Positions 1 to 46,055 are shown, counted from the first letter of the whole stretch. The stretch is DNA of 63,216 nt, filler included, from Lenisia limosa (GCA_001655205.1; 19 parts of 19 records of this genome joined end to end with filler, not necessarily neighbours in it), one strand, 5' to 3'. Numbers and translations: made by a program. The notes: generated by a model from the letters alone, not told the origin.

Positions 1-105
1 TTCGTTACCTCTCTCTCGGCTGATAACACTTCTCATCCACCTCCCCTCCTATTTTGGTATCTTTCACACTCTCCATTTGGAAGTCCTTCCACTTACCGCA
101 TTTAG

Positions 106-3100
106 TCATGCGGCAGCGCCACCATATCCGACGCCGGATGGTGGGGTTCAACCACTAACGACGGTTCCCATTTCCCTCCAGGTATGCTGTGTTCTTTACT
201 TGTTGTCTTTCATTGATTAGCATTATCTCAATCATATCATATCAATTGCAGCACATCTATAAACACAACTGAAGGGACTAAGATCATGAGTAGCTTCATA
301 CTCTGACCGGAATCTGACCCCTTCAGGCCTCCACGCCTCCGAACATGTCCATGGCCTCCTCAACTCCTGCGGTGCGACAGAGGCGAATTTAGCCGCCATC
401 TCCGCCGCCACCGGAGGGGAAACCAGACTCACGCATTACCTCGTACCGGTTCTGGTGTGTGGATGAACCGGGCTTGTTTTTGCTTTTGTGTTTTTGTCAT
501 CTGGTATTTGTCTAGTTTTAGCGTTGGCTGCTCGTGTTTGTTATTGCTTGTTTTTTGTTTGTTTGGAGTTTCAGATTATTCGGTCGAAATTTCCTTCGTT
601 TTACNNNNNNNNNNNNNNNNNNNNNNNNNNNNNNNNNNNNNNNNNNNNNNNNNNNNNNNNNNNNNNNNNNNNNNNNNNNNNNNNNNNNNNNNNNNNNNNN
701 ACACGGTTCTCTTGTTCGAGTTGATTGTGATTTGTTTCAAATAACTAAAAGATGACTTTAGCGTTGTTATTCTTCATAACGCCCCTTCCTCACCCCCTTC
801 AGGAAATTGACGAGGCGCCCAAGGTGCTAACAGGCGACGATGCCATGTTCTTCACCAAGGTCACGAGTGCGTATAACGGCCTCGACGAGTGGAAGTACAA
901 CCCGGCTCAGCAGGCTGCCAAGTACTGGGGCCGAGTATTATGCTGCTTGCTTGAAAATGACTCCTTTTGGTTTTTGATGAAGGGATAACAATATTCTTTT
1001 TCTTGCGTTAATTGATCTTCCACTCCATGTGCTTACGTTGAACAGATACGGAGACTACACCAACGTTCGTCTCCTCCAAGCCTGGGCCGGCCTTGCCACA
1101 GTACCCTCAACGTTCATGCAGTAGGACTGGGTTATACTTATGCTATTAATCCATCCAATCATTCACCCGTTCCCCAGCATAAAATGTTCTTTCTGGTCAA
1201 ATAAAATAATACAAGTGATATACCTAAGACACGGATTAGTTTTGATTACCCTAGACACGGAGGTCGCATCACTTTGACCTTGCCTGGCGGTGTCTCATTC
1301 CCGGCATCCGCACTCTCTGTTGAACCGGTTCACGTGTCGGCTGACTACGTAAGCTCCGTCTTTCCTCCATCCTTCTCTTCTCCTTCCATCCTTAGATATC
1401 ACCTTTTTCTCTCTTTCCTTAGGTCCAGATCATCACTGAGGTTATCTGCCCCCAACCGCGGATTTTCATCTTAGCCCCCCCCCAGATTGCCATCACCGAG
1501 ACCACTGTCACCACCAATACGGTTGTTCTCGAAGTTCGTCGGACCTCTAAAATCGGCTCCCCCCCTCCCGTAAGCCGATTTCTCTATCCGTGTGAAGTGT
1601 CTACCTTCCGTTTATGGAATATTCTCTTTCAGTGCTTTCCTTTTATGTCAAGTAGCCTGGAATAGTTATTGACCTCTCAGGCTGCCAAGCTCCTCTATGC
1701 TCTGCAGTACCTCAACGGAGCTGGAGCCTCCATCTCCGTCTCAATCTCTTATCAACAGTGCGCATATTCGTCGTCGTTGCCTTTATTAATAGAATTTTCA
1801 TTGTTGTACACTATCAAATGTTCAGCCATTATTAAAATACTTCTTTTTTTGTAAATTCCTCGACCATGATCTCGATACATTATTTTTCAGGATGATGTAC
1901 GACATGTCACAACCGCTTCTTGACCCCCCTTTCGTCGTTTATCTGTCCCCAACGTCAGGCTCAGGTGCGCTATGCGGGGCTCCTCTTCTGGGATATTGAC
2001 AGTCTGGCCCTATTATGCATACTTGTCGAGTAAATAGTGATAATAGTTCCATCACTTGTCATCTTTTGACCCCCCAGTATCCCTCAAGAAAATGCTTCAT
2101 TTCGACATGCCTGCTGTCAAGTTTGCGGGTTTATTGACTCTCATATGGGATTATGCTTGGTCTTGCCTCTTCTGTTTTCTTCTTCAGTTGTGGCACTTTT
2201 GAAAGGATTACCTGTCATTGTATCGGTGTTCACACCCCACAGACTGACACACCACTACTCTGCACCTATCAAGGAAATGTCTCGTGGCACTGTGGTATGG
2301 GGATTGGTGTCTCTATTAGGCTTAAAGAAAGATATTTCTAAGTGTACTTACCATATCAGGCAACCTCCTCTTGCACTTACCATATCAGGCAACTTCAGCC
2401 CACTTTGAACAGGAGCTCAAGGCACGTCGTACTGTTTACGGCTCAACTGGCATGACACCTACTGTTGGGGGTACTTTCTTAGTCAAAACCGCTTGCATGC
2501 TTGCGAGTTTAATATCGATGTGGTACGCCCCATGTTAATACGATGTAGAAAACCAAGGGCATCGTTCTCCGCGGCTCTTTCGGCGCTACATTAGTTGCAT
2601 TAGGTAAGCCCCCTGTAATGGCAATCTGTTATTGTAGTGTGTACTTTCTTTCTACCAACCTGAGATCACATCTTCCAACTCTCTAGGCAACATTGTGCAC
2701 GATGACACAGAATACCATCCCACCGCCCCCATCACGTCCTATGTCACGTGGTATGGTGCTGAAGCTCACTGCAATTCTTATATTTANNNNNNNNNNNNNN
2801 NNNNNNNNNNNNNNNNNNNNNNNNNNNNNNNNNNNNNNNNNNNNNNNNNNNNNNNNNNNNNNNNNNNNNNNNNNNNNNNNNTCATGACTAACACCTTCTT
2901 TGACGAGACCATTGGCGTGTATGGGGGCAATGCTGGATCAACTACTTCAATGATTGAGCATTTTTGACTGGCCTAGGCACTGTTTTTTGACTTTCAAACT
3001 CGTGTGTATCAAATGTTAAGCTAACAGAGTTGATGTCTGTTTTGTTTTGTTTTTGTTTCCTACGTACATATATATACGTTCGTTACCCCCCCCCCCCNNN

Positions 3101-3624
3101 NNNNNNNNNNNNNNNNNNNNNNNNNNNNNNNNNNNNNNNNNNNNNNNNNNNNNNNNNNNNNNNNNNNNNNNNNNNNNNNNNNNNNNNNNNNNNNNNNNCG
3201 AGTGGCGAAGTGACGTGACACACAGTGTCCGCGCGGAGATCAAGGTCTCGAACAAGTTCCCTAAATAGTGAGGGGGATCAAGGTCTCCAACAAGCTCCCT
3301 AAATAGTAGGTTCAAAAAGGGGATCAGTTCTGAAGGCTCTAAATTAATAGTGCTGGAGGGGACACACCAAAGCAACAAATTTATCACACACCACTCCTCT
3401 CACCATCCAGCTTCGACGCTGCCCGCTGCAAGGCCAACGAACATATTGTCAACGTCAACACCCTCAGAAGAGTCCTTTCTGATGACCAGGTCGGTTGAGT
3501 GCTGCCAACGCTGATTCTAACATGGAATATGCGCTCGAATCTGTTTTGTCCTTTGCTTGCTCCCTTTATCCCCCAGCTTACCGGCACGGAGGTGGCTTCC
3601 CCAGCCCTCTCTGACTACACCGAG
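106..3624 (+). CDS. Multi-exon (>=18 exons) hypothetical protein, partial; one exon resembles the FGE/sulfatase-modifying-factor domain
   Basis: Chain of AG..GT-bounded open exons, e.g. SCGSATISDAGWWGSTTNDGSHFPP / GLHASEHVHGLLNSCG.. / EIDEAPKVLTG..KYWGR. The exon from ~2687 reads HPTAPITSYVTWYGAEAHCNS, similar to the FGE-type P(V)xxVSWxDAxAYC motif. Only some junction phases were checked. Confidence 0.6.
2917..3097 (+). repeat. Family B copy apparently starting at the GT donor
   Basis: GTGTATGGGGGCAATGCTG (degenerate head)..GACTGGCCTAGGC..AGCTAACAGAGTTGAT..TTACCCCCC then gap. Confidence 0.65.
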
Positions 3625-3675
3625 GTATGTTGTTGGTTACTTGGATTGCTTTCAGAGGGGCAGATATCAAGATCT

Positions 3676-3775
3676 NNNNNNNNNNNNNNNNNNNNNNNNN
3701 NNNNNNNNNNNNNNNNNNNTTAATTAATTAANNNNNNNNNNNNNNNNNNNNNNNNNNNNNNNNNNNNNNNNNNNN
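3676..3775. other. Artificial contig-joining spacer (N44-TTAATTAATTAA-N44), first of 18
   Basis: Identical 100-nt structure with the 12-mer at 3720, 11442, 18688, 19912, 21438, 24631, 27682, 28904, 34303, 37220, 38792, 44559, 47070, 48904, 50295, 52801, 54784 and 61781. The 12-mer gives stops in all six frames. Sequences either side are not true neighbours. Confidence 0.97.
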
Positions 3776-4020
3776 TAATAATAATAATAAACATGACTCC
3801 TTTATCACACTTGTTTAGTAGAATTACAAAATAATACACCTTCATGGAGAAAGCACCCCCAGCCCATGGTCTAACTCTGTTAAGCGTACTGCTTCATTTC
3901 GGTACGAAAAAGAAATACCTTATCAATATCTATATCCCTCCAAAGCCTTTCAAACGTGTTGCAGTTTATGTCGTAATAACCGGCCACCTTCACAGTTGGC
4001 GTCATTTTGTTCATTGACAG

Positions 4021-5749
4021 ACATGGCAATTGCCAAGGCAATTTGCTCTTCCTCGCTGAGATCTCCAACCTAAAGGATCACACAGGATTTTACGAGATAT
4101 CTGACTGTGTTGTGAGTAGACGGAATTCTTCGACAAACTCCACATTATCGCATGCTATTGGCCTTTGTCAGACTATTAGAAATCCTTATGATCAATCATT
4201 AGTCATAAACTTGGACCCCCCACCCCCCTTCAAACCTGAGCCATATCAATACTTCTCTCGACCTTTTTTGGCAGGTCTGCGGGCTGAACGTCTCTCCAGT
4301 GTGGACCCCAGGCTTTGCTCTCCTCCACTGCTCGGTGCTTCCTGACAGTACGTGAGAACAACTCTTAAACGATGCGAAGACAAAATCAGGAAAAAAATAT
4401 ATTCTGAAATAGCACCAAAATCCAGGAGGAATGGAGATAGGGAAACAATTGAAATATGGAGAGTTTGAAAACTGCCAAAAAAGCAGTGGTTGCTTCCTCT
4501 CAGAGGGGGGTGAAAGAATATCAAAACTTCGAAAATAGTATTCAACAATGAAAATAATAATAAAAAATACAAATAGTGGTTTCTTCAAAGGACGTAAACG
4601 AAATGTTCTTTGATTATGATGAAGTTTTTTTCAAGGTTAAAAACGTTGGGACTCGCCGTTTCGACGTTGATGCCAATAAATCATCAATGTTTGCGAGTTC
4701 AAATGCCACGCACCAGATTGAACTGTCATTTGATCTGGATGCAGATATTGATTACGTTGATAATGTTAATGTTAATGTTCAGTGTGAGTATTGTACTGAT
4801 ACAGATGGGATGATTTTACAGTTTGTTTATAAAACATTTCCCTACCTACATATTATATGAAGCAAGACTAACTGGTTTATTCATTTTCTCTCATTTAGAT
4901 AAGTTTACGGTGTTCGCGCATCTTTGCGGCGATACACTCAAATGTTCAGCTCGACGCTCCCCCCCCCCCGCATCCTTACCTTAATAGGTCCTACTCATTG
5001 AAGCCACATGGCCTGTGAAGAGGCTGAGCTTGCTCCGATGCGTTTAGACTTTGTANNNNNNNNNNNNNNNNNNNNNNNNNNNNNNNNNNNNNNNNNNNNN
5101 NNNNNNNNNNNNNNNNNNNNNNNNNNNNNNNNNNNNNNNNNNNNNNNNNNNNNNNNNNNNNNNNNNTTTGTATACAATATATTTTTAAACTGTCCCCCAG
5201 TCCGCTTCACCGACCGAACTGCTTCCGAACCATCAAGACGACATGACCCCTGTAAGCTTGCGGAACTTCACAACATTATCCATATTTAAAGACAAATACT
5301 TATGTATTATCACAGGAGTCCCCTACTGTCAATCTCTCCAGCCACCCTCCGCCTGTTGCCAAAAAATCTGTTTGCGGTTACTGCCACTATTGTCTACATA
5401 TTTTCATTTGTACAATATTTATTCATCATGTGAAAGAACCACTATTATTTCATTTTAGACAACTCATCAAAAGTTTCAAAAGTTGAACCAGTTTCACGGT
5501 TGGTAATTTTAATATCTTTTATTTAATTATGTTGCTCTAACCAACCAGGAAAGCTGGAAACATATACAAACAGCGATTTTCCTGATAAGAAGTTCGTGAA
5601 GGCGTATCTTAACAATAGGAACTACGTCCTTGACGAGGTCAGTTGATTATTCATTTGTTTTAACACCGCCCACAATGACTTTACTCATTCTCGCTGCTGC
5701 GCACCTACAGTTTCTGAAGCTGGACGTTCTTCAGATTATGTATGCACAG
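4021..5749 (+). CDS. Multi-exon hypothetical protein (partial)
   Basis: Open splice-bounded exons: HGNCQGNLLFLAEISNLKDHTGFYEISDC, VVSSKDVNEMFFDYDEVFFKVKN, KLETYTNSDFPDKKFVKAYLNNRNYVLDE. No family recognised; may be more than one gene. Confidence 0.4.
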
Positions 5750-6366
5750 TTCTGGGGATTATGATTAACAATCCATTTTTGAGGAGAGGGGGGGGGGGGG
5801 NNNNNNNNNNNNNNNNNNNNNNNNNNNNNNNNNNNNNNNNNNNNNNNNNNNNNNNNNNNNNNNNNNNNNNCCGCCCCCCAACTTCTGAATACGTGGGCCG
5901 TCAACGTTATTATACATGTTGTTTTGCGTTGTACTGTATATCGATATAGTTAACGATACTGTAATCTGATGTGAGCATCATTTAACACCCATCAAGTTTT
6001 TAAACACATGTTTGGGTATCTCACACCTTAAGGCGATGTACCTCTCGGAGCTACCGAGCAATGTGAGTGATTTTATTATTAGTGTAATAATCTACTGCAT
6101 GACAAAAGTTGTAGGACTGTAAATTGGGCATATATTCTTATACAATATATAATTATAATAAGGGTGCAAGAATTTTTTTAAACGTTTCATGTGTGACAAT
6201 TTGACAAATGATGAACCGAAAGGAACCACTACATAGCTAACTAATAAAAGAGAATATTGAACAGATTTGGGACAATTATGAAATGAGAGAAAAAGGAATG
6301 TTAAGGGATGCAAAAAGGTGCTAAAGAGCAGGCCAAAGGATGATGAGGACCAAACTCAACTTTATT

Positions 6367-9300
6367 TCATAAGATACTAAAGACCCATTTTGATTTACAT
6401 CAAAACAAGAAAAAAATGAGATGGGGGAGCGGGAGGGGGGGATAAAAGAAATTGTGATGATAGAATATTGGTGTGAAGTTATTAGGGGCTGGCAGGGCTG
6501 ACCTGCTTTGACGGCCATCGCCGCCCTTGTTTCCTCTTCTCAGGGGATCGGTAGCGTTAGTGGCGTGGAACGGCTGTGGCCAGTCTTTGGCGTACTTCGT
6601 GGCCTCTTTTCGCGCTTTGTCCTCAGCGAGGCGTCGTTCCTATGTATTAAGAAAACTACTTCAAAATAGAAACAACATTCAACGGACACACGCAAACCAT
6701 CAATGGATTATTTAAAACGGACCCATCCACGCCGTGAAGTCGACTTTCCACGGACCAAACTACAACATATGGTCCGACCTAAACTGAATGAGTAACTACG
6801 TGCATATGATTTGGTTCAATAACTAGCAAACATATCAATATGAGGAGGCATGTTGTGTACAGTTGTAAGACAAATGACAGGTAATATTATAATGAATATC
6901 TCTGGCCGGATCCTTGTATCGTTATTATATTCCATATGAACGCCCACAGCCCCCCCCCCATACGGCGGAATAATCAGGGCCATTACCAGACGTGCCGACG
7001 GCAACGAGACCGGGTCGGGAGACGAGGGATGTGATTTGTCCACGCGACGTGTTGTGCGTTGTCGGACCCTCAAGCTGAAAAGTAATCGTTATGGATCGCA
7101 GATCTAAGGTTATGGTCAACAGTCAAACAATAACTTGTTTCAGAGGACAAAATAATAGTTTTGACATATCCCATGAACGTTGGAGGTTGATGAGTCAGCC
7201 AAGCTTGATATAATATAACTATTCATAAGTGACCAAATTTCTGACATTCGCACCTTTGTGAGAAAATGAAGATTTGGTAAGGACAAAACGAGAACATCAC
7301 TTGAAGGCGCAAGGGAGACACAGACAGCAGCGGGTGACATTGAAATTCGAGTACACGGTTCGCTAGCAATCTGAGGGCTGTAACTCTTCAATCCAGTCCC
7401 ATTGATGTTTATCGAAAGAACATATAATATATCATATGCTGGGGAGGCACGCAGAAAGCTGTGTGCACAGAATTTAAAGGCAAATGATTGGATTAATTCT
7501 ATACTATAATCCAATTTCTCTTTTACTTCGGCCAGACACAACCTTTCTCATCTACAATATACAGTGGTTTACTTGGTTTATGGGGGGGGGGGTGTTTTTC
7601 GAATATTGTCATTGAAGAAGCAGATTCAAATATGATAATGAAAACAAGGACAGAAAATAACAAACATCAAACCTTTTTGGAAGAGACAACAACACCTTCA
7701 ACAATGTCTGTCACGGAAATGCACCCTAGAAGGTCACTCTACCGCAATAAACTGACTTCATGCGGAGAAATCCTCATTAGTAAGATAAACACAACTCAGT
7801 AATACACCGTGATCCAAGAAAACACATTATACTCGAATAGTGTGTGAGGGATGGGGGCTACTCACCATCAGAAGTCACAATAGCAAGGTAACGCCCGAAC
7901 ACTTCACAACTCGTCACCTTGGACTCCTAAACAATTACAATAAGAAGGTAATTCATCAGTGCAAAAATACATCCCAATAGCTCACAGCTGTAAGTTCTAT
8001 AAGGTCTTCGAAAGGACAAAGTGCCTAAGATAATGACAGCATCGAGGAATCAATACAGTGTCCAAGATTTCGAAGGGTATCACACAGGGGTATGTATACA
8101 AGAAACATGCCCACCGTGGAAGTTCCCCTAATGAAGTCATCAACCAGTGCCATTGAGAGAGTTCCGTGCCGGGTGACCACCATCACCACCTCCTTCGGTG
8201 CTGTCTCGCCCACTGTGTCTGAGGAGGTTAGTAACTTTGGTATTACATTCATTATAACGTACAAAAGGGATCATTTACTATGTCTTAAACTTAACCATAT
8301 ACCCAGTCGCAGTCCTACTTTCAACAGGGGCGATTCCGGCCCAGCAGGTCCCTTCAAATACTTGTGAGTCCAGGACGTGGTTGCCGCCGCCGCCGACACT
8401 GCCAATGGACACGGTGCCATTCTAAATGGTCAAAAGTGCTTCACTTTCGGTTTCAAAAAGTCTTGGAAAACATCTTTATGAATAGAGGATTTAGGCTCCC
8501 ACAAACGTGCAAAGCAAGCAAATTCAATTGGTCAAATACATGGTAGTGGAAAACATATTACTTGCTTTGGTTTGCGATTAATGACCCCTTAAAATCACCT
8601 TACAAAGTATAATATAAGGGCTCCGTGCAATAAATGTTTTGAAGAAATTAATTGCCAAAGTTTGAAATTAAAGTGTCCGAAATGGAGTCCCCAAGAAAAT
8701 ATGTCTCATTTCAAATTTTCAGCCCTAGTATATCATGTTTTTTGATATGTAAGGTTCAATCACCCCCCCCCCTCCAACAGTACAAGCACATACAACATAG
8801 CGAGGTGACGTGTCCAGGCACATCACAGTCCCATTGGGTCTCAAGACAAAACCGTCATCAGGCCGCGTGATCCAGTGAATGCCTATTGCACTCTACCATT
8901 GGGTGAGGACTAGTTAGACTTCATTTGAATATAAAAAGGGTCGTTTATACTTTCCAAGTTTATTGAGGGACTCATATGTGATATATCATATACTAAATAC
9001 TGTTTCATATTCAGGGTGAGAAAGTAGGTAGGAACGAGAATGTGTAAAGAGTAACGTAACCACAAACTTGGGTGGCAGAGGCAACATAAGATTGCGAAGG
9101 AGATATGTGGTAAATTTCAGTATCATGCGTAGGTGGAAGATGCCTTCTTTTGCCTTTCACTCCAACAGACTGAATAAAAATGAAAGCTGTAGAAATGTCA
9201 AGTGTAGCGCGTCTCAAAAGACTGAATTGCATAAACACATTGACAATAATGAAATAGTGCCTCCAACCATGAGACGATGGTCACCTGAAGCGACAAATGA

Positions 9301-10490
9301 GAGTTTAGACGACAGTTCAATGGCGGTGGTAGGGGCCTCACCTACACCGTTCGCATAGACCTTGTTGAAGACTGTATTGGGACCACAGAGACTGAGGGTT
9401 ATTAGTACTAGTGTACTCCTGGTGTTAAGCCAAAGCCAACATTACTCTTTGATCTGCTGCCCTACCTTTCTTTGATTTTGGAGGCCGAGAGACTCGTGAA
9501 TGATAAGTGACATCGAGGTTCTTGAGGCGGTGGTGGACTGTGGAAGGATTAACCTCGAAACAACACGAAAAGTATAAGCTGTCACAGTCCAGTCGGATCT
9601 GTAGATTAATGTTTCACAGTAGATGTCTGTTTGGCGTTGATTCCAGTGTTATCATTGTTCACTCCCCCACCCACTGGTCATGTAGAACCAGACGGTCCAC
9701 GGGCCCTGCAACACCAGGCTTGATTCTGAAGGCTTTGGCGGCCTTCTTGCCTTTGGCCGCCCACCCGCCTTCCACTGCATTCCTAGGAGGTAACGAGGCG
9801 CTTTCATATTATCAAATTTTGTGCAAACATGTTTTCACAATAGAAGGAGACAGTGATCCAGTCTATCTAAAATCATTCTACAATTCATGAGGGAAATGAT
9901 TAGTATTTGCCTTTCTCACCTCAAGCTGTACTCCCTCCGCCAGGGCATGTCGGAGGAGGGCGGCGGGCTGTGGTACAGCGTCACTGTTGGCGCGGTACTG
10001 AGAAGATGTCTGGAGCTGCTGGTGGAGCTTACAGCTTCGTCAAGACTTGATAGACACGCGGGGTTGCCCCATCGTCGCGTAAAGGCCTCTCTAAATGCCT
10101 GAGAAGGGGCGTGGAATTCTCAACCCTGTGAAAAACAACGGGACTCAAGAACATGACAAAAAAGGCAAGGAGTGAAATACGCACAAGTGAACTCTTTACA
10201 CGCGTCAATGGTCATTATATAAAATTATAACGCTATTATCAGGGATTATCACCCACTTCCAAAGGTTATCGTTGTCAACTACGTCCCTCCAGGATCGACT
10301 GAATTGTGTGAGAGGAGGGAGACAGAAATATATGATAGATTCACTCAAAATGGTTTTATTTGTTTTTATTTAGTATCAATTAGCGTTGTAATACAACGAA
10401 GAGTCCCTCATACCACACTAGCCGCATTTTAGCGATGGACTTCGGGTCCAAAAAGGCAAAGGAATGAAACAAAACATGCTGATCAATCAT
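6367..10490 (-). CDS. F-box protein with probable WD40/beta-propeller C-terminus
   Basis: Spliced N-terminus MIDQHVLFHSFAFLDPKSIAKMRLVC|RSWRDVVDNDNLWK is an F-box motif. It is followed by WRREYSLR..MQWKAG and beta-strand-rich exons (VTSCEVFGRYLAIVTSD, ITSLVSRPGLVAVGT). The 3' end is approximate. Confidence 0.7.
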
Positions 10491-10646
10491 ATTGAACCAG
10501 GAAATTTTTGAACAAAATTGGACATTGTTTTTTTAATTTAGTGAAAGCCGGCCGCGGATTATTAAATAATTGTTTTGCTTTTTTTTTTGTTTTTGAAGCC
10601 CAGCTTGTTTAAGGAAGTACCTACATTCTTTATATACCCAAAAACG

Positions 10647-11396
10647 ATGAGATCTTTTTATTTCCTTTTGATCGCCCTCCTTTTCGCTGTGACGTCAGCT
10701 GCGCTCGTTTGCAAAGGTATAGGGGAATATATTGACACTAACCGCCAGGTTTTAGCGCCATTTGTCTTTCCTGATATTTTTAGAGCCTAAGGCGCAATCT
10801 GCTTTCTGTGCATCCACTGGAAAGTTCTGTATTGAAGAGAGCACGGTTTGGAGCTTATCAACTTTCCTATTGATTGTCTTCTAGGACCCCGACTTTACTG
10901 AGACTCTTACTGAGGCTGAATTCAACAAGCAAGTTACCACTAACGTATGTTTAAAGGAACGTTTATTTGCCCGAGGTTCTTTGTGACGGAATTTACTCGC
11001 CGCCAATTCTTGACTGGACTCATCTCTTCCAGAAGGCCACTTGTGAGAAGAACTCTGACGACTTTATCCCTGGTTGCAAGGTTGATTGGTAGGCCTTGTG
11101 TTCTTCCTCTCATTCTCTGCGGTCACTCTACCCCATTGGATTTTCTCTTTCCCCTCGGGAACGAAGGAGTATTCTCTTTCAGTGTTCCTTCGCGTTATGA
11201 GGGTTACCAGTTGTTTCTTGTTTGGTGTTTTGCAACACGTCAAATCAAAAAGTGCAATGTCAACTAGGCCCATGACCTTCCAGCCCCTCTGACGTCGACA
11301 CCTGCGCTGAGGACATTGTTGATAACGCCTGTGACTTCGACAAGGAGACTTTCTGCTCCACTTTCACCAAGTCTCAGGAAGATGGCGGACTTATGG
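10647..11396 (+). CDS. Secreted cysteine-rich hypothetical protein (5' part)
   Basis: MRSFYFLLIALLFAVTSAALVCK signal peptide, then in-phase exons EPKAQSAFCASTGKFCIEEST / DPDFTETL.. / KATCEKNSDDFIPGCK / ..CAEDIVDNACDFDKETFCST. Confidence 0.7.
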
Positions 11397-11498
11397 TNNN
11401 NNNNNNNNNNNNNNNNNNNNNNNNNNNNNNNNNNNNNNNNNTTAATTAATTAANNNNNNNNNNNNNNNNNNNNNNNNNNNNNNNNNNNNNNNNNNNNA

Positions 11499-14400
11499 GG
11501 ACATTTCGTTGATGCATACGGCGTGAAGGGACTAAGTACACCCAAGGGGAAGCCAAAAACAATCAGGGAAGGCATGGCGATAATGTATTAATTTGTTTCC
11601 TTAGATTTTGATGTCATGTCACAGAATCAAAATGATTAAAACAATCTGCCACGAAATAGCCAAAACAAACATGGGGGTCCGGACGAATTTTCCAGTTTGC
11701 GGGGATGAGCGGAACATTTGCATCAGGCTTATCATCCTAATATGGTTTGTTAAGTTGAGGACTTTCTTAATATGGTAACAAAAGAAGTTTGGACTTTCCA
11801 AATCCGGACCCCCTCCTCCAACAGTCTGAAAGAAGCCTGCAAGCGCCTTATCCTGGCGCATTGACGAGTCCAAGTCCAGTTCCAGATCCCAGTCCTCCTC
11901 TGACTCCGAGCCTGAACCTAAACACGTGAATTTATATTTAAAGATGTGAATTTGTAAATATATCCCCAAAAAAATTGAATTGGGCTCAAAGTACACATAG
12001 TTACGGATTACAGCACTCTTATACCTCGGGCACCTGCCGTCCCAAAAAAGACTGAATTTCATTATAAATCCTTGATAAATATCGATATTTTAGAGTTTCA
12101 TAGCCGATTTGGTCAATTCTCGAGCTANNNNNNNNNNNNNNNNNNNNNNNNNNNNNNNNNNNNNNNNNNNNNNNNNNNNNNNNNNNNNNNNNNNNNNNNN
12201 NNNNNNNNNNNNNNNNNNNNNNNNNNNNNNNNNNNNNNNNNNNNNNNNNNNNNNNNNNNNNNNNNNNNNCCCCCGCTCACCCTTAATTAAAGTTGAACCT
12301 TGCTTATACCCCCGCTCACCATTAATTAAAGTCGAACCTTGCTCGGTGTTGAGTGCACCTAGATCGCCAAGGTCAAAGTCGCCATCTTCATCGTCCACTG
12401 CGAGGAGGGGTGAAATTGAAAATTTTATGAAACAAAAAAAAAAGGGAGGGTAGTGAAAAACTTACGATAGAAATACAATTACGATAAAAAAAAAATCAGA
12501 ACAGATAACAATTGTGAATCATACTTAATTCCCGTTCACCTACCACACACACACAAACACAAACCACAACAACCCCTTAATTCCCAGGCACCCCCACTCT
12601 GTAGCCGGAAGCTTTCGCCTCGCTGCACGGGCCGGGCCACAGCCTCACATTCTGCAAGCAGGTCACGTGACGCCTTTGAATGCATCTGCGGGGGTGATAT
12701 GGTATAATATGGTAAAATTGGTCGCACATTAAAACAATATAATAATTCGGCATATAAATATTGGGCGACAGACATGTATACTGAGTAATATGGAGAAAAC
12801 GAGGATATTACGCAACATTACAGTTTATACGCAAAATTACGCAACATTACAATATATTACGTAAAATTACGCCAACATTGTCAGGCTCAGATGGGTACAA
12901 CAGTCCACACAAAACAAATTACGAAATAATACGAAACATTACGCCACAAACCACGTTATTTGCACGCGAGACGAAGAATGCCGCGTCACTGTGTCGATTC
13001 ATATCTTTTAGGGCTCTGCGGAAGGGGGGGGGGTAAAACGAAGGAAATTTCTTTGAAGAATTTGAGGAAAGTTACTAATATCGAACCGAATAATCTGAAA
13101 ATTGAAAAAAATTCCGAAACAAAAAAAAAAGCCCAAAATCAACTAAGTTGGCTAGCAAACATACAAAGGCACCATACTTAACCTCTATACCACCTAGGGC
13201 TCCATTTCGGTTCGAAAAAGACCGGTAAATATCGATAGTTTTCGAAGATTTTGATTTAGTCTTTTTTTTCGAACCGAAGTGAAGCCCTGATTATACAACC
13301 CACCAACCCCTCACCTTGCAATATGCATGCTCGCCTCGGCCTCAAGCTGGACAGGCGCGGACGGCCACAGTTTCAGCTGTGTAGGTGAATAGTATAATGG
13401 GGTGGAAGGAGGGGAGTATCATAGTATCATCATCCGCAATATCCCCAGATCACTTTATTCAATATCTCCCATCATCATCACCATATGTAGAAGAGAAATA
13501 AAAAAAAAACATCTCCACCAACATCATCTTGGGTTGTGAAGCACACTGCAGGCGGTTGCTGTCCAGGAGGAACGGAAGAATGTGTNNNNNNNNNNNNNNN
13601 NNNNNNNNNNNNNNNNNNNNNNNNNNNNNNNNNNNNNNNNNNNNNNNNNNNNNNNNNNNNNNNNNNNNNNNNNNNNNNNNNNNNNNNNNNNNNNNNNNNN
13701 NNNNNNNNNNNNNNNCTATGTTGGCTGACAACCAACACACAAGTATTGAAGCAAAACAAACAAAGCCCAGGTCAGTCACTTCTGCAGCCCCACATCCCCC
13801 GAACCGTGGCCGATTTCGCTACTTTTCGAGCGGAAATTATCCAAAAATACCAGGGATGTTGAAGGGGTAAATACCTGGGATGTCAATGTGTTTGATGATG
13901 GTTTATTTTTTTTCAGTTAAATAAAAAGATAGCATAAGTAGTAACCAATTGTAATATCGTAGATATTAAGAGACTTCAACTGAGACTTAACACAAAAATT
14001 TGAATAACAATTCCTCTTTTGAAATATTTTTGAGCAGGATGAGCATTTGGGAAATGTTGGATGGGAGGCGCACAGAAAACTGTGTGCACAGATTTGTAAG
14101 GTAAATGATTGGGGGAATAAATGTTAATCCCCCACACCCCCACGATATATTTTAGTAATTAATCCCCACATCCAAATTTCAGATATGATATAAGCCCCCC
14201 ATTCCCACGGCGTATTTTAGCGCGGCAGTGACGGCGGTGTTCTGATGCGACTCAGCCGGGCCAGCCTGGCCGCTCTGTCTGAATGCGGCAGCAAGGCGAC
14301 AGTGGAGCTCAACACGCAGAATATGAGCTGTTTTTGGGGTTAGGAATGGAATGAATGTCTAATCAGTCGGTAGGAGCTGTTTTTGAGTTAGATTTGCAGT

Positions 14401-17400
14401 ACTTGTTGAGAGATTAAACAAGAATGTTATATTAAATGTTGGAACTCAAACTGAGAGAATATGGGATGTTGCTATTTTTTGGATATATAAACTGGAAACA
14501 ATCATCACCATCATCTACATCATCATTATCCATTATCATTATCATCACCATCAGCACCAAAACACCACCTCCGTTATCATGATCATCATCATGAATATTA
14601 NNNNNNNNNNNNNNNNNNNNNNNNNNNNNNNNNNNNNNNNNNNNNNNNNNNNNNNNNNNNNNNNNNNNNNNNNNNNNNNNNNNNNNNNNNNNNNNNNNNN
14701 NNNNNNNNNNNNNNNNNNNNNNNNNNNNNNNNNNNNNNNNAACATCATATAGAGATTGTTATAGTAACCCAATCATTTGCCTGAAAAAATTACACATTAA
14801 TTTGTTTCTGGTATCCCTATGTAACATTATATCATGTATTAAATATAGATGTACTGTACATATAGCTATATGATACTACACAATATAATAAACAGGAAAC
14901 CAACCTTCATTGAAATACGGTGAAAATGGTTCGGAGGCGGACACTGAGCGTGGCATTGCGGGTTCATGTGCCGACTCAATGTAGGACTGGAAGGGGGGGT
15001 AAATTTGGAAAATTTATGAAACAAGAATAGTTTTCGATGCAGAAGTGTGTTTAACAACAGTTTTATTTCAATGAATATCAAACCATAACAAATTGAATAA
15101 TTTACTATCGTAATAACAGATTCACGTATTTAGTACTGCCTCAACTCTGTTAGCTGACAACAAGAAAACACAAGCCCAGGCCAGTCGCTGCAGCATCGTA
15201 TCCCATCACTCCAGCGCACGTGAAAATGGAAAATGAAATAAAACAAAATCCGGAAATTACTCTGTTGGCTAGTATTTGGAAACACACAACAATAAAAAAC
15301 AAAAAGCCCAGGCCAGTCGCTTCCACTGCTCCACTTGTGATGAAACGTCAAAAAAAAAAACATAAGGTAACCTCTGTTCAATATGCAATAACGGAAATAC
15401 GAAATACAGTGACCGGAAAGATGGGACGAAACCCCCCTACAGACCTCCACAACCGCCAGGGCTCTTTGCCAGTGTAGAATCGCAGTGGCAGTGTCGTTGG
15501 TTCGCTGCACTAAGTCGCCTAGAGTTACTAGGAGCTGGACTTGACGTAACGGGGCTGATTCATCGCCCTGTGGGGGGGGGGGGGNNNNNNNNNNNNNNNN
15601 NNNNNNNNNNNNNNNNNNNNNNNNNNNNNNNNNNNNNNNNNNNNNNNNNNNNNNNNNNNNNNNNNNNNNNNNNNNNNNNNNNNNNNNNNNNNNNNNNNNN
15701 NNNNNNNNNNNNNNNNNNNNNNNNNNNNNNNNNNNNNNNNNNNNNNNNNNNNNNNNNNNNNNNNNNNNNNNNNNNNNNNNNNNNNAGAAGCTTTGAGCTC
15801 GAGCACCTCGATTTCTTCTGAGGCTTTGGCCAGTTCATCCACACTAAACAGTCAATCACCAAATCCACAGAATTCTATTTTATTTAAAAGAACATCCCCT
15901 ATTGAAACCCTTTTTGCAGCTAAGTCTCAATTAAAACTATAATATGATTTAGCTGTAGTTAGGTGTCAGGATCAGATCTGACCAGAAAAGCCAACACAGC
16001 TTAGCGATTGATCGAGATTTTCGGTCGATTTTCGAACCGAAGGGAAGTCCTCCATGACCACATAATCACATGAAAGAAGTTTGCATATGTGTGTGCAATA
16101 ACAAGAACAAGATAACATAATGTAATAGACGAATCAGGTTGACATCAGAAATAGTCGTGGAGCATCCTCGTTATAATATATCGATATTCTGCATCGCATT
16201 GTTAAAATTAGGTTCTAGTGAAGCAGGACACCAAATGAGTGAACTATCGCATGTTCCGATTAAACAAAACATATTCCTTCCTTTAAGAACATCATCATCA
16301 TCATAACAACATGATCCATCATCATCATCATCAACAACAACAACAACAACAACAACAACATCAACAGCCCATCTCCCACCTTGTGTACTCGTCTTCATCA
16401 TCTTCGAAGTCGGCGTCCCAGTCTGATTCTGAATCCTGACCTGGAGGGAAATAATCAGGGGTAAGATAGTAAGAGTTGGGAGGGGGGGGGGGTGTCATTG
16501 GAAAAAAGAATTAAAAAGCCCAAATCAACTCCGTTGGCTGATAACACACGAGGGTTGATGTGAGATATAATACATATAATATAGCAATGAGAAAAAAAAA
16601 AATAAGGTAGTATCNNNNNNNNNNNNNNNNNNNNNNNNNNNNNNNNNNNNNNNNNNNNNNNNNNNNNNNNNNNNNNNNNNNNNNNNNNNNNNNNNNNNNN
16701 NNNNNNNNNNNNAGTATGTATTATAACACATCATACTTATAAGAGATATCATATTGATAACAGTATGGTTGAAGCTGTCCACAACACCATGTTTATCAGG
16801 GATATTCACGAAAATGTCTGGCTGAAGCTGTCCACACCATAATTTTAATATCAAATAGCAATAAAAGTATCTGGCCGAAGCCGTCCACAACACCATGTTT
16901 ATGAGTGACTTGACTAAAGTATCAGGCTGAAGCCGTACACAACATCATACTTAAAAGAAATATCATATTGAGAGAGTAACATGCCGAACATTTGAGTAAG
17001 AATCGCTGGATCTTTATGGTCATAGTTTCAACAGAGACTTTACTTATCATCATCCAGTTCAGAGATCCTCCCATTCGTAAAAAAAACACCTGAATTACAG
17101 CCACAATAACACCCAGATACACTGACCGCGAAGTCCTGACACAAATATAGGACTAATTCCCAGTCAATCATGTCAGGACTTATCGCGTTCAATGTATTTG
17201 TAGAGGAGAAATAAAACAAAGTTGTATCTGGCCAACGCCATCCAGGCCACGCTGTTAAGAAATATTGGATTATAGTGTACTCAATCATTTACCTTACAAC
17301 TCTGTGTACAGAGTTTCCTGAGTGCCACCCCAGCATACCCCCATACATTCTCGAAATGTTGTAATATGATCACCAATATCACATCAATACCCCCCTCCCC

Positions 17401-18642: not shown

Positions 18643-18743
18643 NNNNNNNNNNNNNNNNNNNNNNNNNNNNNNNNNNNNNNNNNNNNTTAATTAATTAANN
18701 NNNNNNNNNNNNNNNNNNNNNNNNNNNNNNNNNNNNNNNNNNA

Positions 18744-24851: not shown

Positions 24852-27509
24852 CTGACAGGCGAACTTGTTCATTGCTGACTCTAGACGATCGGGTCTGACA
24901 GCCTGCACAACCAGCAAACGCTGGAACGCCGAGGCTAGGGGGTGGTGAGCAGGGAATTTAAAGGACCATTATATTTTGAAGATTAGGGATTCTAGTGCTT
25001 GAGTAGGGCTTCACTTCGTTTTAAAAAGACAGGATTTCTCGATAAATCCGAAAAACTATCGATATTTTACCGGTCTTTTTCGAACCGAAGTGAAAGCCCA
25101 ATCGTGATATTCAGGGGTATTTTGTAATGTGATGGGGGGTGAGGGGTTAGAAAACAACAAACAAATCAAAAAGTAAAAACAGCAGGTAAAACAACAGGAA
25201 AATCGCAGTACCGTTCGTTCGAAGTGCTTTAGGCCAGGTTTGGTCACAATCCGCAGTACGTGCCCATCTAGACCATATCTGCCGGGAGAGGGGATGGTAA
25301 AATAGCAGGTTCTTACATTGGATATATTGAAAGAACGTGTAAGTGAGGTGCAGAGGGAGGTCAGAGGAAAAATGATAAATTTATTGGGGGGTTCCACAAA
25401 CACGTCAAACATACAGTGACTGGGATAAGTCTTGACCGATTTGCTCTCTGATTTCCCAAGGAAAACCGATCAAGACTTTTCCCAGTCAAGACTTATCCCA
25501 ACCACTGTATATCACATAGCAAATCAGTCAAGACTTATCCCGGCCACTGTCTATCACAAAGCAAATCAGTCAAGACTTATCCCGGCCACTGTATATCACA
25601 TAGCAAATCAGTCAAGACTTATCCCGGCCACTGTACCCACGTTTAATATCAATATATCCCCCCTACGTCAGCACTATGAAGGTCCAAAGAGGCGTAGAGC
25701 TGCGGGAGGGATTGCGCGAAAGTGGCGAGGCGTGCGCGTGAGGCTGGATCGGCCCAATCCGCTGCAAAAAAATAAATTATATATATATATATGTATTTTC
25801 AAAGGGGGTAAAAATGTAACATGTAACAAAATCACCCAGACAAGTGTCGAAAACAACAAAACAAAGCTATTGTTGTTGTTGTTGTTGGGCTCTCTCTCTC
25901 TTTCTATCCCTTCCCCAGAAAAAAACCATCCATATTGGGTTGAGCTGCCTACCTGACGATGCTTTCGTTGACGCTTGGGTGGTCACGACTTGGCCTGTGA
26001 AGTAGTCCCACTCGTTTGGCTGGAAGAGCTGGGGGAGGGGATTAAAAAGCAATTCTACTGTATATTATTTTATCTTGGTCAAAAACACAGAGTATGTTAT
26101 TTTGCCTTATGGTACCCCTATGTGTCAATTTATGCATGTACATAATATTATATTTCTCCTGTTCCGAAACAACACATTTGAATTGTTTTTTTGGTGTGGT
26201 GGCAATATATGTACAATATATGATATGATTTTTTTGAAAAAAATCTTACCTTAGGAGCAAGACAGTGGGAGAGATGAAGAGCTGCAGTCAAACGATCGGC
26301 CTTGAACAGTCCGCGCATTGTGAGGTTCATCCAGGATACAAGGAGCTCAGATCTGGGGTGAGTGTGTGTGTGTTTACAATATTATGTATATACGTGTGAG
26401 ATATATACATAGAACAAAATGCATATCATATGTATGTGTGTGTGGTTACGAAAAGTACGGCAAAATATCGAAATATATCGATGATATATCGAGAAATTCA
26501 ATTATTGACCCCCCCCCACTTCAACTTGTCAAGCCTGGTTTGGATGTTGTCGCTCTGCGAGGTCCTGGACTGCAGAACCGCCTCAAAAGTCTCCATGAAG
26601 GACTGGGGGGAGAAAGAGAGTAAAATAGCAGGTTCTTACATAGGAAATATTGAAAGGACGTGGAAGTGAGGTGAAGAGGGGGTGGGTATAATTGGGGAAA
26701 ATTTATGAAACAAAAAAGCNNNNNNNNNNNNNNNNNNNNNNNNNNNNNNNNNNNNNNNNNNNNNNNNNNNNNNNNNNNNNNNNNNNNNNNNNNNNNNNNN
26801 NNNNNNNNNNNNNNNNNNNNNNNNNNNCGGAGTATTAGGGTGTTACAGGAGGTAAGGGGAAGCGTGGCGTGTTGAAAATAACACAAAAAACCCAAGGCCA
26901 AGGCCAGGCGCTTCAGCTGTGAGGGTGTCAAAGGGGGGTGGTGATAGTGATGGTTGTGTTATTGGTGGTGTGGAAGTAAACCCAGAAGACTTCCCTCTAA
27001 ACGCAAACGATGAGGGAAGTAATATATAGCTATATGATATCCCCACATCCACTAGTGATATGATCTGTAGTTGCAAATTAACCTTTGATTAATTTAAATT
27101 GTGTTCATAAAAAATCACTTGAATTACTTTTTTTATTCTTTCACTACAGACGTCCCCCTACATGAAGCGAAAAGGAGTACATGGAGTTGACTGTGGTGAG
27201 GTCTGCGGCTCCAAAGAAGAGTGTAGCGCCATGTGATGCAAGGGGTCTGGGCGGACGGGAAGTTAGTTTAGCAGGTTCTTAAAAAGGAACTTTTCCAAGG
27301 ACGTTATAATATCATGTCACTTTTTTGGGTCATTTTCCTACGTGTGAACTATTAACATAGAGTATTAGATAATAAAATACAGTGCATATCATATATTATG
27401 TCATGTATATCTAATAGCCCCCCCCCCCTCTCACCTATAGACTTCCCTTTCTTCATCCAGAGATTTTTGGAGTTTCAATGAATCTTCAAGTGCGTCCTTA
27501 ATGGTCGAA
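24852..27509 (-). CDS. DYNC2H1: Cytoplasmic dynein-2 heavy chain (IFT dynein), internal fragment, 7 exons
   Basis: STIKDALEDSLKLQKSLDEEREVYR|PLASHGATLFF..NSMYSFSLH|SFMETF..|GLFKADRL..|LFQPNEWDYFTG|..|FQRLLVVQAVRPDRLESAMNKFACQ follows the dynein-2 sequence (ERDAYLPLA, LFKADQL, FQENEWDTFTG, VQALRPDRLQSAM). Confidence 0.9.
25004..25100. mobile_element. Family A MITE, full length, in a dynein intron
   Basis: TAGGGCTTCACTTCGTTTTAAAAAGAC..GTCTTTTTCGAACCGAAGTGAAGCCC. Other copies at 13195-13289, 37696-37780, 56448-56551, 62325-62425, 62994-63083 and 63132-end. Confidence 0.85.
25414..25633. repeat. Family D MITE whose right end is tandemly amplified (42-bp unit x4)
   Basis: TA|CAGTGACTGGGATAAGTCTTGAC.. 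followed by AGTCAAGACTTATCCC(G/A)(G/A)CCACTG ending at 25507, 25549, 25591 and 25633. Confidence 0.85.
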
Positions 27510-27637
27510 CTGAAGGGGGTAAACATGGAAAATTTATGAAACAAAAAACCAAGAATTAACTCTGTTGGCTGGTATTTGGAAAACAGCAAAACAAACAAAA
27601 CCCAGGCCAGTTGCACTAGCGTGGGGGGGGGGGGGGG
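27510..27637 (-). repeat. Family B intronic element, near-complete copy ending at the dynein 3' splice site
   Basis: Sense sequence C-run-ACGCT..ACTGGCCTGGG..AGCCAACAGAGTTAATT..TTTGTTTCATAAATTTTCCATGTTTACCCCCTTCAG|exon. Confidence 0.85.
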
Positions 27638-28796: not shown

Positions 28797-28859
28797 CCCG
28801 GGATGCGGTGCTTTAGTGATGGGATGCGGTGCTTTAGTGATGGGATGCGGTGCTTTAGT
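28797..28859 (+). repeat. 21-bp tandem repeat (GATGGGATGCGGTGCTTTAGT)n, equal to the family B head
   Basis: Three copies run into the contig end, inside a HydE intron. Confidence 0.85.
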
Positions 28860-42400: not shown

Positions 42401-44488
42401 TCATCGAAACTTACTTCTTTTTACCCACCCCCCCTTCTTCAGCTGAGAATCGGGTCCCTGACCTTGACCGTTGTGGAGAGGGTGGCAAAACGTCTTGAGG
42501 CGGCCACGAGGAAACCCATTACCGACGCGGAGGGCCAGAAGCTTGACCGTTTACTTTATTGTTGGGGGTGTACTGGAGGGATTGAGGACAAAATAAGCTT
42601 CACCGTTTACTTTATTGTGCCCCATCCCCCAGTATGTTGTTTTTTTGTTTCATATGATTATGATATTGTCATTAAAACTGTCAAATTTCCATTATTTCCC
42701 TCCTTTTTCCCAGTATGCTTTTAACCCACTAAATTACTTCATTTACGTCTACGCTGGAGTGATGGAATGCGGTACTGCAGAAGCGACNNNNNNNNNNNNN
42801 NNNNNNNNNNNNNNNNNNNNNNNNNNNNNNNNNNNNNNNNNNNNNNNNNNNNNNNNNNNNNNNNNNNNNNNNNNNNNNNNNNNNNNNNNNNNNNNNNNNN
42901 NNNNNNNNNNNNNNNNNNNNNNNNNNNNNNNNNNNNNNNNNNNNNNNNNNNNNNNNTGAACCTTAGTGAGCAAGCAGCATCTCAGTCCAAAATGAAGAAG
43001 GCGGGCATCATTGAGTTGGGGGGAATCATTGATTGGGCAATGGAGATTTGTTATAAGCAGGGCTTCACTTAGGTTCAAAAGTAAACTGAATTTTGCGACA
43101 AATCCTCGAAAATTATCGATATGCCCTAGTTATAATGCTCTGTGGTGAAATAGGATGTAATCGTAATACGGCCGTATTTCTTCAAAGTTGTAACCCAGCT
43201 ATCTGTTATGTCTTATCATTCTACATCCTTCCTTTCCAATACTTTCACTCGGAAACCGGCATGACGCTACAGCCATCTTATTGCCGCCTTGAGTCGCCCT
43301 GATGCTGACCTCGTAATGCTGATTCTGACTTTCCTGAAGTCTATGTCAGTGTACCAGGAGAGTGTTGATGAAATGGTGGGTGGGGGGGGGGGCTTTCTCT
43401 TTTCTTTATTTCTTCCTTTCTTCCTTTCTTCCTTTCTCCCTTTCTTTCTTTTTTTCTTTCTTTCTTTCTTTCTTTCTCCCTTTCAACTAGCAAGCATATG
43501 ATCGGGTATTTTATCAAACTATAAACGATTTCGAGCAAGCATGGTTGTGTGGACGGCCTCAGCCTGATACTTCCCACTGTTTAGCTGACAGAGATGATTT
43601 TGGGTTTGATGGTGTATTTCTTCTAACATATCTTTGATGCGATATCTCTGTTTCTTCTAACATATCGTTGATGCGATGTCTCTACTTCTTCTAACATTTC
43701 AGCGCAAGTTGAATCTAATGAGTCAAATGGTTGACCTCATCCCATGTGAACACACTGTAAGATGTGATAGTTTCATTTAATATCAATATATGTTTTTAAA
43801 TCATATTTTTTTTATTCATTTGTGAGCGGGACAATTTTTGTTATTTTTNNNNNNNNNNNNNNNNNNNNNNNNNNNNNNNNNNNNNNNNNNNNNNNNNNNN
43901 NNNNNNNNNNNNNNNNNNNNNNNNNNNNNNNNNNNNNNNNNNNNNNNNNNNNNNNNNNNNNNNNNNNNNNNNNNNNNNNAATCTTTGTTTACCAAATTAA
44001 GAAGTTATAAAAGCCTTACTTACCATATTAGGAAGTTATGAAGCTCTCCCTCCAACTTTGCCGCAATGTATTATTGGACCCTCGAACACGTCAGTCTGAG
44101 GCGGCTCAAAATCTGATCCCCAATGTAAGCCCTTTTTATATGACATGAATATTTTTGAGATTCGTGATGATTTGGACTGCTTCTGTCTGATACTACAGCA
44201 CTATCTGTTATAAACGTGATGTGGACGGTTTCATTCAAATCGTCTTTCTCAATTCGTCTGTTTTTGTTTTGAATTTCTGGTTTCACTATTCCAAAAGGGG
44301 ATGGAAATTACCTTGAAAATATCAACTTTTTTTGCTTTAAAATTATATTACTTATATATATATATTACTTTTAAATTACTTTGAAATCTACGGTCCGATT
44401 TCTTGCCTTTAACAGGGATCTAGATTGTTGCTCTTCTCAAAGACCCCCCTTTCCGCGGAACCGCAATAAATCTCCTCTATATTTACAG
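39473..44488 (+). CDS. KIFAP3: Kinesin-associated protein 3 (kinesin-II accessory subunit), 5' part
   Basis: MEDARFVKK|RVLVNEIEVDPKEDALLIHYQ|VEASLLGE..|..EEYQEGLYEDD..|LNALARMLREEGKRSIDLTTQ..|LRIGSL..|..MVDLIPCEH; collinear with KAP3. Confidence 0.92.
40504..40600. mobile_element. Family A hAT-type MITE
   Basis: TIRs flanked by ACTTGAAC / ACTAGAAC (7/8 TSD match). Confidence 0.8.
40930..41030 (+). repeat. Family B copy in a KIFAP3 intron
   Basis: CTGGGCTATGTTTTG..AACCCTTG..AACAGAGTTGATTCTGGGTTTGTTTTGTTTCAT. A further head (TACGCTGGAGTGATGGAATGCGGTACTGCAGAAGCGAC) is at 42752-42787. Confidence 0.8.
43058..43128. mobile_element. Family A hAT-type MITE (deleted)
   Basis: CAGGGCTTCACTT..GCCCTA flanked by GTTATAAG / GTTATAAT (7/8). 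Confidence 0.8.
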
Positions 44489-45312: not shown

Positions 45313-46055
45313 CTTCAACACCTTCTCGAACATGAGATAGTTGTCCATGGTCTCGGCAGCGATCTGAGCAACATTTGTGTCCGCAAACTCAACGAACGCG
45401 TAGCCCCTTGATTTACCGGTCTACAAAGTTAACAGCAGCTTTATTGCAGGGGAGGGGGGGGGGGGAGNNNNNNNNNNNNNNNNNNNNNNNNNNNNNNNNN
45501 NNNNNNNNNNNNNNNNNNNNNNNNNNNNNNNNNNNNNNNNNNNNNNNNNNNNNNNNNNNNNNNNNNNNNNNNNNNNNNNNNNNNNNACACACGAGGATTG
45601 AGAACAAAAAGAAAGCCCAGGCCAGACGCTTCTGAAACACCACATCCCCATCAGCAAGAGGGGGGGGGGGACAGCTTTCACATATCACATGCCCTTGATC
45701 TTTCATTCATTATACTCTCTCATTCTCTTTGTCTCCCCCCCACACATCTTCCATTCACATTCACGAGAGGAATGGGCAGAGTCAACCCAGATGCTCCCCA
45801 GCCATCATAGGGAAGCAAGATCAGTCTTACTCAGCCACGCTCACCTTGGGGTTTCTGGACACACGGATGCGATTTACTGTTCCGAACTGGCTGAAATAGC
45901 CCCTCATAGCATCTTCAAAGAAACCGAATGGGATATGTCCGATGTAGAGAACTCCAGGCACCGCTTCATAGTCATCTTCAACCTTGGTGGTAAGAAGCAA
46001 GCACGAACATGAAAGAGCTAACCTCCACCTTTGAAAGCTTCTTTCCACGTCCCAT
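45313..46055 (-). CDS. NIFK: NIFK/Nop15-like nucleolar RRM protein (5' part)
   Basis: MGRGKKLSK|..[38 protein letters not shown]|[29 protein letters not shown]. Confidence 0.9.

What the first reader, a model, noticed from the sequence alone, without database searches (positions are those of the whole stretch)
455..13806. Three introns that may consist entirely of one family B copy
In introns starting at 456 (GTGTGTGGATGAACCGGGCTTG..), 2917 (GTGTATGGGGGCAATGCTG..GACTGGCC) and 13806 on the minus strand (GTTCGGGGGATGTGGGGCTGCAGAAG..), the predicted GT donor coincides with the start of the degenerate B head. For 2917 and 13806 the next exon follows the body/tail plus a short gap. Intron = element from GT to AG is what an introner predicts. 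The heads at 456 and 2917 are quite degenerate, N gaps hide the 3' ends, and other copies (45600, 42752, 48961) have the head inside the intron after a C-run or other sequence.
Basis: partly seen in the sequence, partly recalled or inferred. Interest (0 to 1): 0.7.

Follow-up and report, generated by a model that had tools for sequence, protein, structure and literature searches.

The report
Mobile repeat rebuilding intron ends
A short repeat sits at the far end of many introns, facing the same way as its gene in every case that could be oriented, and likely spreads by copying itself into the splice-signal tract of introns that already existed, so the three flagged introns are not shown to be new introns made wholly of it.

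Summary
Family B is real and repeated (profile hits in the window, none in a reversed control; 292 DNA contigs lay on 1-615, where one copy sits). The claim that three introns are one whole B copy is not established. At 455, B similarity starts 12-14 nt inside and 102 nt more intron follow the gap. At 2917, B starts 49 nt inside. Only 13804(-) starts about at B, at an internal GT of the head, with its tail hidden in a gap. No RNA contig crosses 455 or 2917; 13804 is untested. Across the window B is sense in 24 of 24 oriented copies, ends in a branch-point-like motif plus C-run, has staggered 5' ends, and 17 of 25 5' ends abut another branch-point-like or C-rich tract (15-24% expected; post hoc test). 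Donors of 13 other B introns are not B-like. Best reading (0.5): an RNA-propagated repeat inserted into the 3' tract of existing introns, bringing a new branch point. Main rival (0.3): an aged Micromonas-type introner with nested copies. It fails the introner end-to-end test except possibly at 13804.

The parts
455..802 (+). Intron 1 (predicted). Best donor 455; in-phase alternatives 443 and 449. Holds a 5'-truncated B copy, a 96-N gap and 102 nt of further intron
   Evidence: not crossed by RNA
467..604 (+). B copy with the second tail variant; its 5' part is highly repeated in run X1
   Evidence: pieces from 467-469, summed depth about 36,000 at 505-506 against 31 on 1-369; 557-604, E 1e-7, training copy
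701..802 (+). Intron sequence after the gap, ending in C-tract and AG; possibly a second, very decayed B tail
   Evidence: one search hit 733-797, E 0.041
2917..2965 (+). 5' part of intron 2: donor at 2917 or 2919 (the only GTs between the gap and the in-frame stop), weakly head-like start, runs into a branch-point-like motif overlapping the B start
2966..3097 (+). B copy from the head core to the C-run; acceptor hidden in the 101-N gap
   Evidence: (2999-3097, E 2.2e-6)
13716..13804 (-). Intron 3 visible part: predicted donor 13804 (alternative 13793) at an internal GT of the B head, then B body; tail and acceptor hidden in the 130-N gap
   Evidence: no RNA test
14986..15343 (-). Two B copies head to tail in one intron; the second starts with GT right after the first one's branch-point-like motif and is split by another repeat
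13015..13169 (-). Headless B copy ending at the predicted acceptor, 145 nt after the donor
26678..26921 (-). B copy inside a dynein heavy chain intron, 240 nt after the donor, preceded by an acceptor-like tract and followed by another module
27510..27623 (-). Ungapped B copy: C-run, short head, body, tail, AG
42747..42787 (+). Long B head starting with GT right after a branch-point-like motif, in the KAP gene
45587..45660 (-). B head after a C-run, 184 nt after the donor, in an RRM gene
48961..48996 (-). Long B head starting with GT right after a branch-point-like motif and C-tract; host strand not assigned

Best explanation
Family B is a short (about 130-180 nt) non-coding repeat that lies on the sense strand at the 3' end of introns and likely spreads through an RNA copy that would insert into the branch-point/C-tract of introns that already exist. 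Shown in the sequence: fixed 3' end (YTNAC-type motif plus C-run), staggered 5' ends, sense orientation, an older branch-point-like or C-rich tract just upstream, tandem B-after-B. Inferred: the element's own last bases replace the branch point and the host's AG is kept, so splicing survives and the intron grows. Inferred and untested: the template is excised intron RNA whose C-rich 3' end pairs with the target and is reverse transcribed there, which gives 5' truncation. On this reading 2917 is a small older intron plus B; 455 and 13804 need a later loss of the older 5' part, or are rare true intron gains.
For: Orientation: 24 of 24 copies with an assignable host strand are sense (hand count; 3 more unassigned, 2 weak hits left out); 9 of 9 where the strand rests on RNA joints or a database hit (p 0.002). 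A different intronic family (7431, 14063, 17282, 41392) is 2 sense, 2 antisense (strands by hand). 3' ends: 11 of 20 tails are followed by YAG within about 10 nt of the C-run, 6 by more intron (3 of them another B piece), 3 by N. 5' ends: 17 of 25 abut a branch-point-like motif or C-rich tract against 14.5-24.5% of positions downstream of 53 non-B donors (p 5e-6 at the least favourable null); 13 of 21 after dropping four cases where the upstream tract may itself be B (p 3e-4). Donors of 13 other B introns score like 54 non-B donors (mean 7.7 against 7.9). RNA shows a downstream duplicate acceptor can be the one used (19-nt repeat 2346/2375, joint ends at 2388).
Against: B boundaries and the flank thresholds were set after seeing the pattern, on about 25 copies of median 69% identity. 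No general target-site duplication (own flanks 5.5 nt against 5.2 crossed, 17 copies). No autonomous partner found; B is not tRNA-like and has no B box. At 455 and 13804 only 12 and 6 nt separate donor and B, too little for an older intron. The three longest heads begin with GT in a donor-like context, as an introner would. No B-containing intron is RNA-confirmed. No orthologue shows that these introns predate B.
Confidence: 0.5

Rival explanations
1. B is an aged introner of the Micromonas IE or fungal ILE kind: a whole GT-to-AG intron that spread by reverse splicing, made new introns (13804, perhaps 443/455 and 2917) and also landed inside older introns and inside itself; 5' parts then decayed or were pushed apart by other repeats.
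For: Sense-only, under 200 nt, non-coding, no inverted repeats; these are the traits given for this class (PMC3879977 section 13; PMC10996645 passages). Nested or merged IEs and remnants inside canonical introns are reported there. 13804 and 2917 score in the top 1 and 3 of 54 for head-likeness, 443 in the top 5. Longest heads start with donor-like GT.
Against: 13 other B introns have no head at the donor while heads survive inside introns. Reverse splicing would insert whole copies ending in their own AG; the bases between C-run and AG vary and 5' ends are staggered. Several GTs and two anchors were tried per site, so the top ranks are weak. No stable fold (z -1.4 to +1.3 over 8 strands).
Confidence: 0.3
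2. B is not mobile on its own. Its pieces spread by ectopic gene conversion or short duplications that start at the shared branch-point/C-run motif, so many introns share a 3' module.
For: Explains 3' anchoring, sense orientation and the lack of transposon ends. Short duplications across splice sites occur here (2346/2375 and 42546/42602).
Against: Conversion replaces sequence, whereas an older tract is usually left upstream and copies stack in tandem. The depth on one subfamily suggests bursts.
Confidence: 0.1
3. B is an ordinary non-autonomous transposon inserted at random in introns; selection removed antisense and mid-intron copies and kept those whose end works as a branch point.
For: The introns hold several other repeat families, including an inverted-repeat element.
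Against: No terminal inverted repeat beyond 2-3 nt (read), no duplication signal, and selection alone does not explain the tract upstream of the 5' ends. Another family keeps both orientations.
Confidence: 0.1

Closest known systems
Micromonas introner elements (Verhelst 2013, PMC3879977: passages and section 13 read; Simmons 2015, PMC4540971: passages read)
   Same: Repeated intronic sequence in the sense orientation; nested or merged copies; remnants inside ordinary introns; RNA-linked spread proposed.
   Different: IEs are mostly whole, highly similar introns with presence/absence polymorphism. B is mostly the 3' part of an intron, about 69% identical between copies, 5'-staggered and placed behind an older branch-point/C-tract.
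Introners as defined by Gozashti 2022 (PMC9860276: first part and passages read) and 2025 (PMC12130899: passages read)
   Same: A repeat family whose end reaches a splice boundary; some families there also lack TIRs and TSDs.
   Different: Their definition needs similarity up to both boundaries and filters out secondary insertions. B reaches the 3' boundary often and the 5' boundary in at most 1-2 of 15 introns.
Fungal introner-like elements (PMC3609843: search listing and start of abstract only) and stwintrons (PMC8469720, PMC9024468: same)
   Same: Multi-copy introns that decay; introns placed inside the splice signals of another intron.
   Different: ILEs are described with stable predicted structure, B has none. 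A stwintron leaves a working outer intron after the inner is cut; here no second AG would remain (inference).
SINE-type non-LTR retroposons (recalled, no paper read)
   Same: Fixed 3' end in a homopolymer run and variable 5' truncation.
   Different: C-run instead of A-tail, no tRNA head or B box, no clear TSD, sense-only at intron ends.

Membership tests
Introner (Gozashti definition) | Multi-copy family of similar intronic sequences | tested here: met
Introner (Gozashti definition) | Similarity reaches the 5' splice boundary | tested here: not met
   Donor-to-B distance 6-266 nt over 15 introns, only 2 under 15 nt; 13 other B introns have ordinary donors; donors are predicted, not RNA-confirmed
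Introner (Gozashti definition) | Similarity reaches the 3' splice boundary | tested here: met
   11 of 20 tails end at a predicted acceptor; hidden by gaps at 2917 and 13804, not met at 455
Introner (Gozashti definition) | Element is spliced out at its ends | tested here: inconclusive
   4 RNA joints on 1-3675, all on non-B introns; none crosses 455 or 2917; 13804 not examined
Introner (Gozashti definition) | New intron position: absent from orthologues or alleles | not testable with these tools
   No genome held; two exon searches each returned one 100%-identical protein and no relative
DNA-transposon introner | Terminal inverted repeats and target-site duplication | tested here: not met
   Ends share only 2-3 nt in inverted form (read); flank repeats 5.5 against 5.2 nt; 2 of 13 acceptor-spanning 7-nt repeats, p 0.019 post hoc
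Micromonas IE / fungal ILE class | Sense orientation in transcription units | tested here: met
   24 of 24 by hand; 9 of 9 with RNA or database support
Micromonas IE / fungal ILE class | Stable or conserved secondary structure | tested here: not met
   8 single-strand folds, z -1.40 to +1.32; copies are old and no alignment fold was run
tRNA-derived SINE | tRNA-like head with A and B boxes | tested here: not met
   ARAGORN 0 genes; no B box on either strand of 17 stretches
Known intronic ncRNA (snoRNA etc.) | Match to an Rfam family | tested here: not met
   One match at E<=1 in the window, on another repeat and below the gathering score

The most novel reading that the evidence does not exclude
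B is an excised spliceosomal intron RNA that retroposes through its C-rich 3' end into the branch-point/C-tract of other introns, thousands of times, replacing their 3' splice signal and lengthening them, and that now and then lands where its head GT makes a new intron (13804, perhaps 443). That would be a mobile 3' splice-site module linking intron growth and intron gain.
Probability: 0.2. Interest if true: 0.8.

Novelty: new variant of a known kind. Interest (0 to 1): 0.45.

Why it matters
Introner surveys require similarity at both intron ends and discard secondary insertions (PMC9860276), so a family like B would be filtered out. If it targets the 3' splice tract through RNA, it offers thousands of natural insertion junctions for the open question whether excised introns can re-enter the genome, and a route by which introns lengthen without breaking splicing. 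Four narrow text searches for this pattern found no paper holding the required terms and three returned papers on IEs, ILEs, stwintrons and group II introns; this is weak evidence of absence.

Tried and rejected
No whole genome is held. Pattern scans of metagenome and viral contigs found nothing. Homology gave no junction evidence: Pfam found nothing for 11 exons of the first gene, protein searches returned one identical gene call each, the Atlas top score was 0.79, and two of three PDB searches were empty. B sequence in two RNA contigs of X2 is not taken as evidence of transcription. Target-site duplication: an 11-nt and a 9-nt flank repeat looked striking but the overall test was flat; the junction test was run three times because acceptor coordinates were off, and only one search counts. 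One search used two templates clipped by one base; one search replaces it. snoRNA, tRNA-SINE and stable-fold readings were rejected. Reading 2917-2964 as a last coding exon was rejected because further open exons follow. Three look-ups of earlier findings returned nothing. Supplements of the papers were not read; the IE nesting figures (PMC3879977 S16-S17) could bear on how close the match is.

Full report
Setting. The window is 19 short scaffolds joined by a fixed linker, with many further N gaps, often next to C or G runs. No genome is held. The host is an intron-dense eukaryote with a KAP gene, a HORMA gene, an RRM gene and a dynein heavy chain exon whose best matches are axonemal chains (E 0.017). 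Its lineage was not determined. One DNA-type run X1 and one poly(A) RNA run X2 of one study hold the region; X1 may be the source of the assembly and is not independent.

Family B is real. Self-comparison and three profiles built from window copies define a head, a U-rich middle, a body and two tail variants, each ending in a YTNAC-type motif and a C-run. At E<=0.1 the profiles give 21, 7 and 4 hits (training copies included) and 0 on the reversed window. Nine seed tails are 56-82% identical, median 69%. On 1-3675, 292 X1 contigs were laid, all within 1-615; summed depth at 505-506 is about 36,000 against 31 on the unique flank. The tool warns that this is no copy number; it suggests an order of a thousand close copies of that subfamily (inference).

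The three introns. True GT positions are 455, 2917 and 13804(-). RNA gave 4 joints, all GT..AG on non-B introns, and none across 455 or 2917. The 13804 locus has no RNA test. The four confirmed donors are GTACTG, GTGCGC, GTTTGC and GTATGG, so the donor signal is weak; at 922 the frame stays open past the true donor. A matrix from 67 mostly hand-picked donors prefers 455 over the in-phase 443 and 449, 2919 over 2917, and 13804 over 13793. Head-likeness of the first 32 nt, scored against three longer heads and compared with 54 non-B donors: 455 is ordinary (17 of 54 as high), 443 has 5, 2917 has 3 and 13804 has 1; several GTs and two anchors were tried per site. A head profile without 13804 matches it from 13798 (E 2.4e-9), matches 2917 only from 2966 (E 0.12) and misses 455. 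Eleven X1 contigs and two X2 contigs that match from 469 continue upstream with other sequence (agreement 0.57 in X1), so the 455 copy looks 5'-truncated against its closest relatives. Its tail ends at 604 and 102 nt more precede the acceptor after the gap. So 455 is not one copy, 2917 starts with 49 nt of mostly other sequence, and 13804 fits at the 5' end, at an internal GT of the head, with the 3' end unseen.

The family pattern. All 24 copies with an assignable host strand are sense (hand count; 3 unassigned; 2 weak hits, both sense, left out). Nine of these rest on RNA or a database hit (p 0.002); the rest rest on open frames and splice polarity, which is partly circular. Another intronic family is 2 sense, 2 antisense. 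Of 20 tails, 11 are followed by YAG within about 10 nt, 6 by more intron and 3 by N. Of 25 visible 5' ends, 17 abut a branch-point-like motif or C-rich tract, against 14.5-24.5% of positions downstream of 53 non-B donors; 13 of 21 after dropping four possible B-after-B cases (p 3e-4). Boundaries and thresholds were chosen after seeing the pattern. The three longest heads start with GT directly after such a tract. Donors of 13 other B introns are no more head-like than non-B donors (7.7 against 7.9), and donor-to-B distances run from 6 to 266 nt over 15 introns. There is no general flank duplication; 2 of 13 copies repeat 7 nt of their acceptor junction upstream (p 0.019, post hoc). No stable fold, tRNA, B box or Rfam family.

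How it likely works. Shown: position, orientation, fixed 3' end, staggered 5' ends, upstream tract, tandem stacking. Inferred: B entered the branch-point/C-tract of existing introns, its last bases supply a new branch point, and the host AG stays in use. An RNA-confirmed case of a downstream duplicate acceptor being used shows such additions are tolerated. Inferred and untested: the template is intron RNA, paired through its C-run to the target and reverse transcribed there; this borrows from target-primed retroposition (recalled). Excised introns with trimmed tails can be joined to a 5' splice site by the post-splicing spliceosome in yeast and human (PMC10996645, abstract and passages), which resembles the tract-then-GT junctions here, but that paper reports 15-20 nt of tail kept after the branch, and the junctions at 15219 and 42747 keep almost none. 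I give this reading 0.5, an aged IE/ILE-type introner 0.3, gene conversion 0.1 and a selection-filtered ordinary transposon 0.1.

Comparison. B works like the RNA-linked introner class in being sense-only, short and nested (PMC3879977 section 13; PMC4540971 passages). It is not filed as an introner, because the defining two-boundary similarity (PMC9860276; PMC12130899) fails at the 5' end in 13 of 15 introns and new intron positions could not be tested. I found no paper describing a sense-only family anchored in the 3' tract of older introns, from narrow searches of an incomplete library.

Verdict. Observation partly confirmed, interpretation partly supported. The three-intron claim is weak, but the family is unusual and testable on the full assembly. 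New variant of a known kind; interest 0.45.

Noticed in passing
window donors throughout: 25 of 64 hand-picked donors have GGGG in the first 25 intron bases (background 7% per 25-mer), while acceptors are C-rich. The two intron ends could pair; not tested.
   Followed up: partly
2346-2393; 3240-3307; 12270-12345; 42539-42618: Short direct duplications spanning splice sites. At 2346/2375 RNA uses the downstream acceptor copy; the others were seen by eye or.
   Followed up: partly
13191-13295, 25002-25105, 40508-40600, 62326-62426 and others: A palindromic inverted-repeat family of about 95 nt (MITE-like, label recalled), many copies in introns; one copy splits a B element at 37717-37781.
   Followed up: no
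37276-37345 (-): A C-run and AG directly followed by GT and a truncated B body, like a zero-length exon or recursive splice site.
   Followed up: no
28800-28859: A 21-nt piece of the B head repeated in tandem about three times up to the scaffold end.
   Followed up: no
25297-25357, 26620-26680, 27269-27304 (-): A second repeated module that also lies near intron 3' ends, three times in the dynein gene, 92% identical between the first two.
   Followed up: no
55097-55750: Broken frames that by recall resemble a DIRS/Ngaro-type reverse transcriptase and RNase H; Pfam gave no support.
   Followed up: partly
18743-19867 and 28960-34258: Two scaffolds with no B hit; the second is more AT-rich. They may come from another organism in a mixed assembly.
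   Followed up: no
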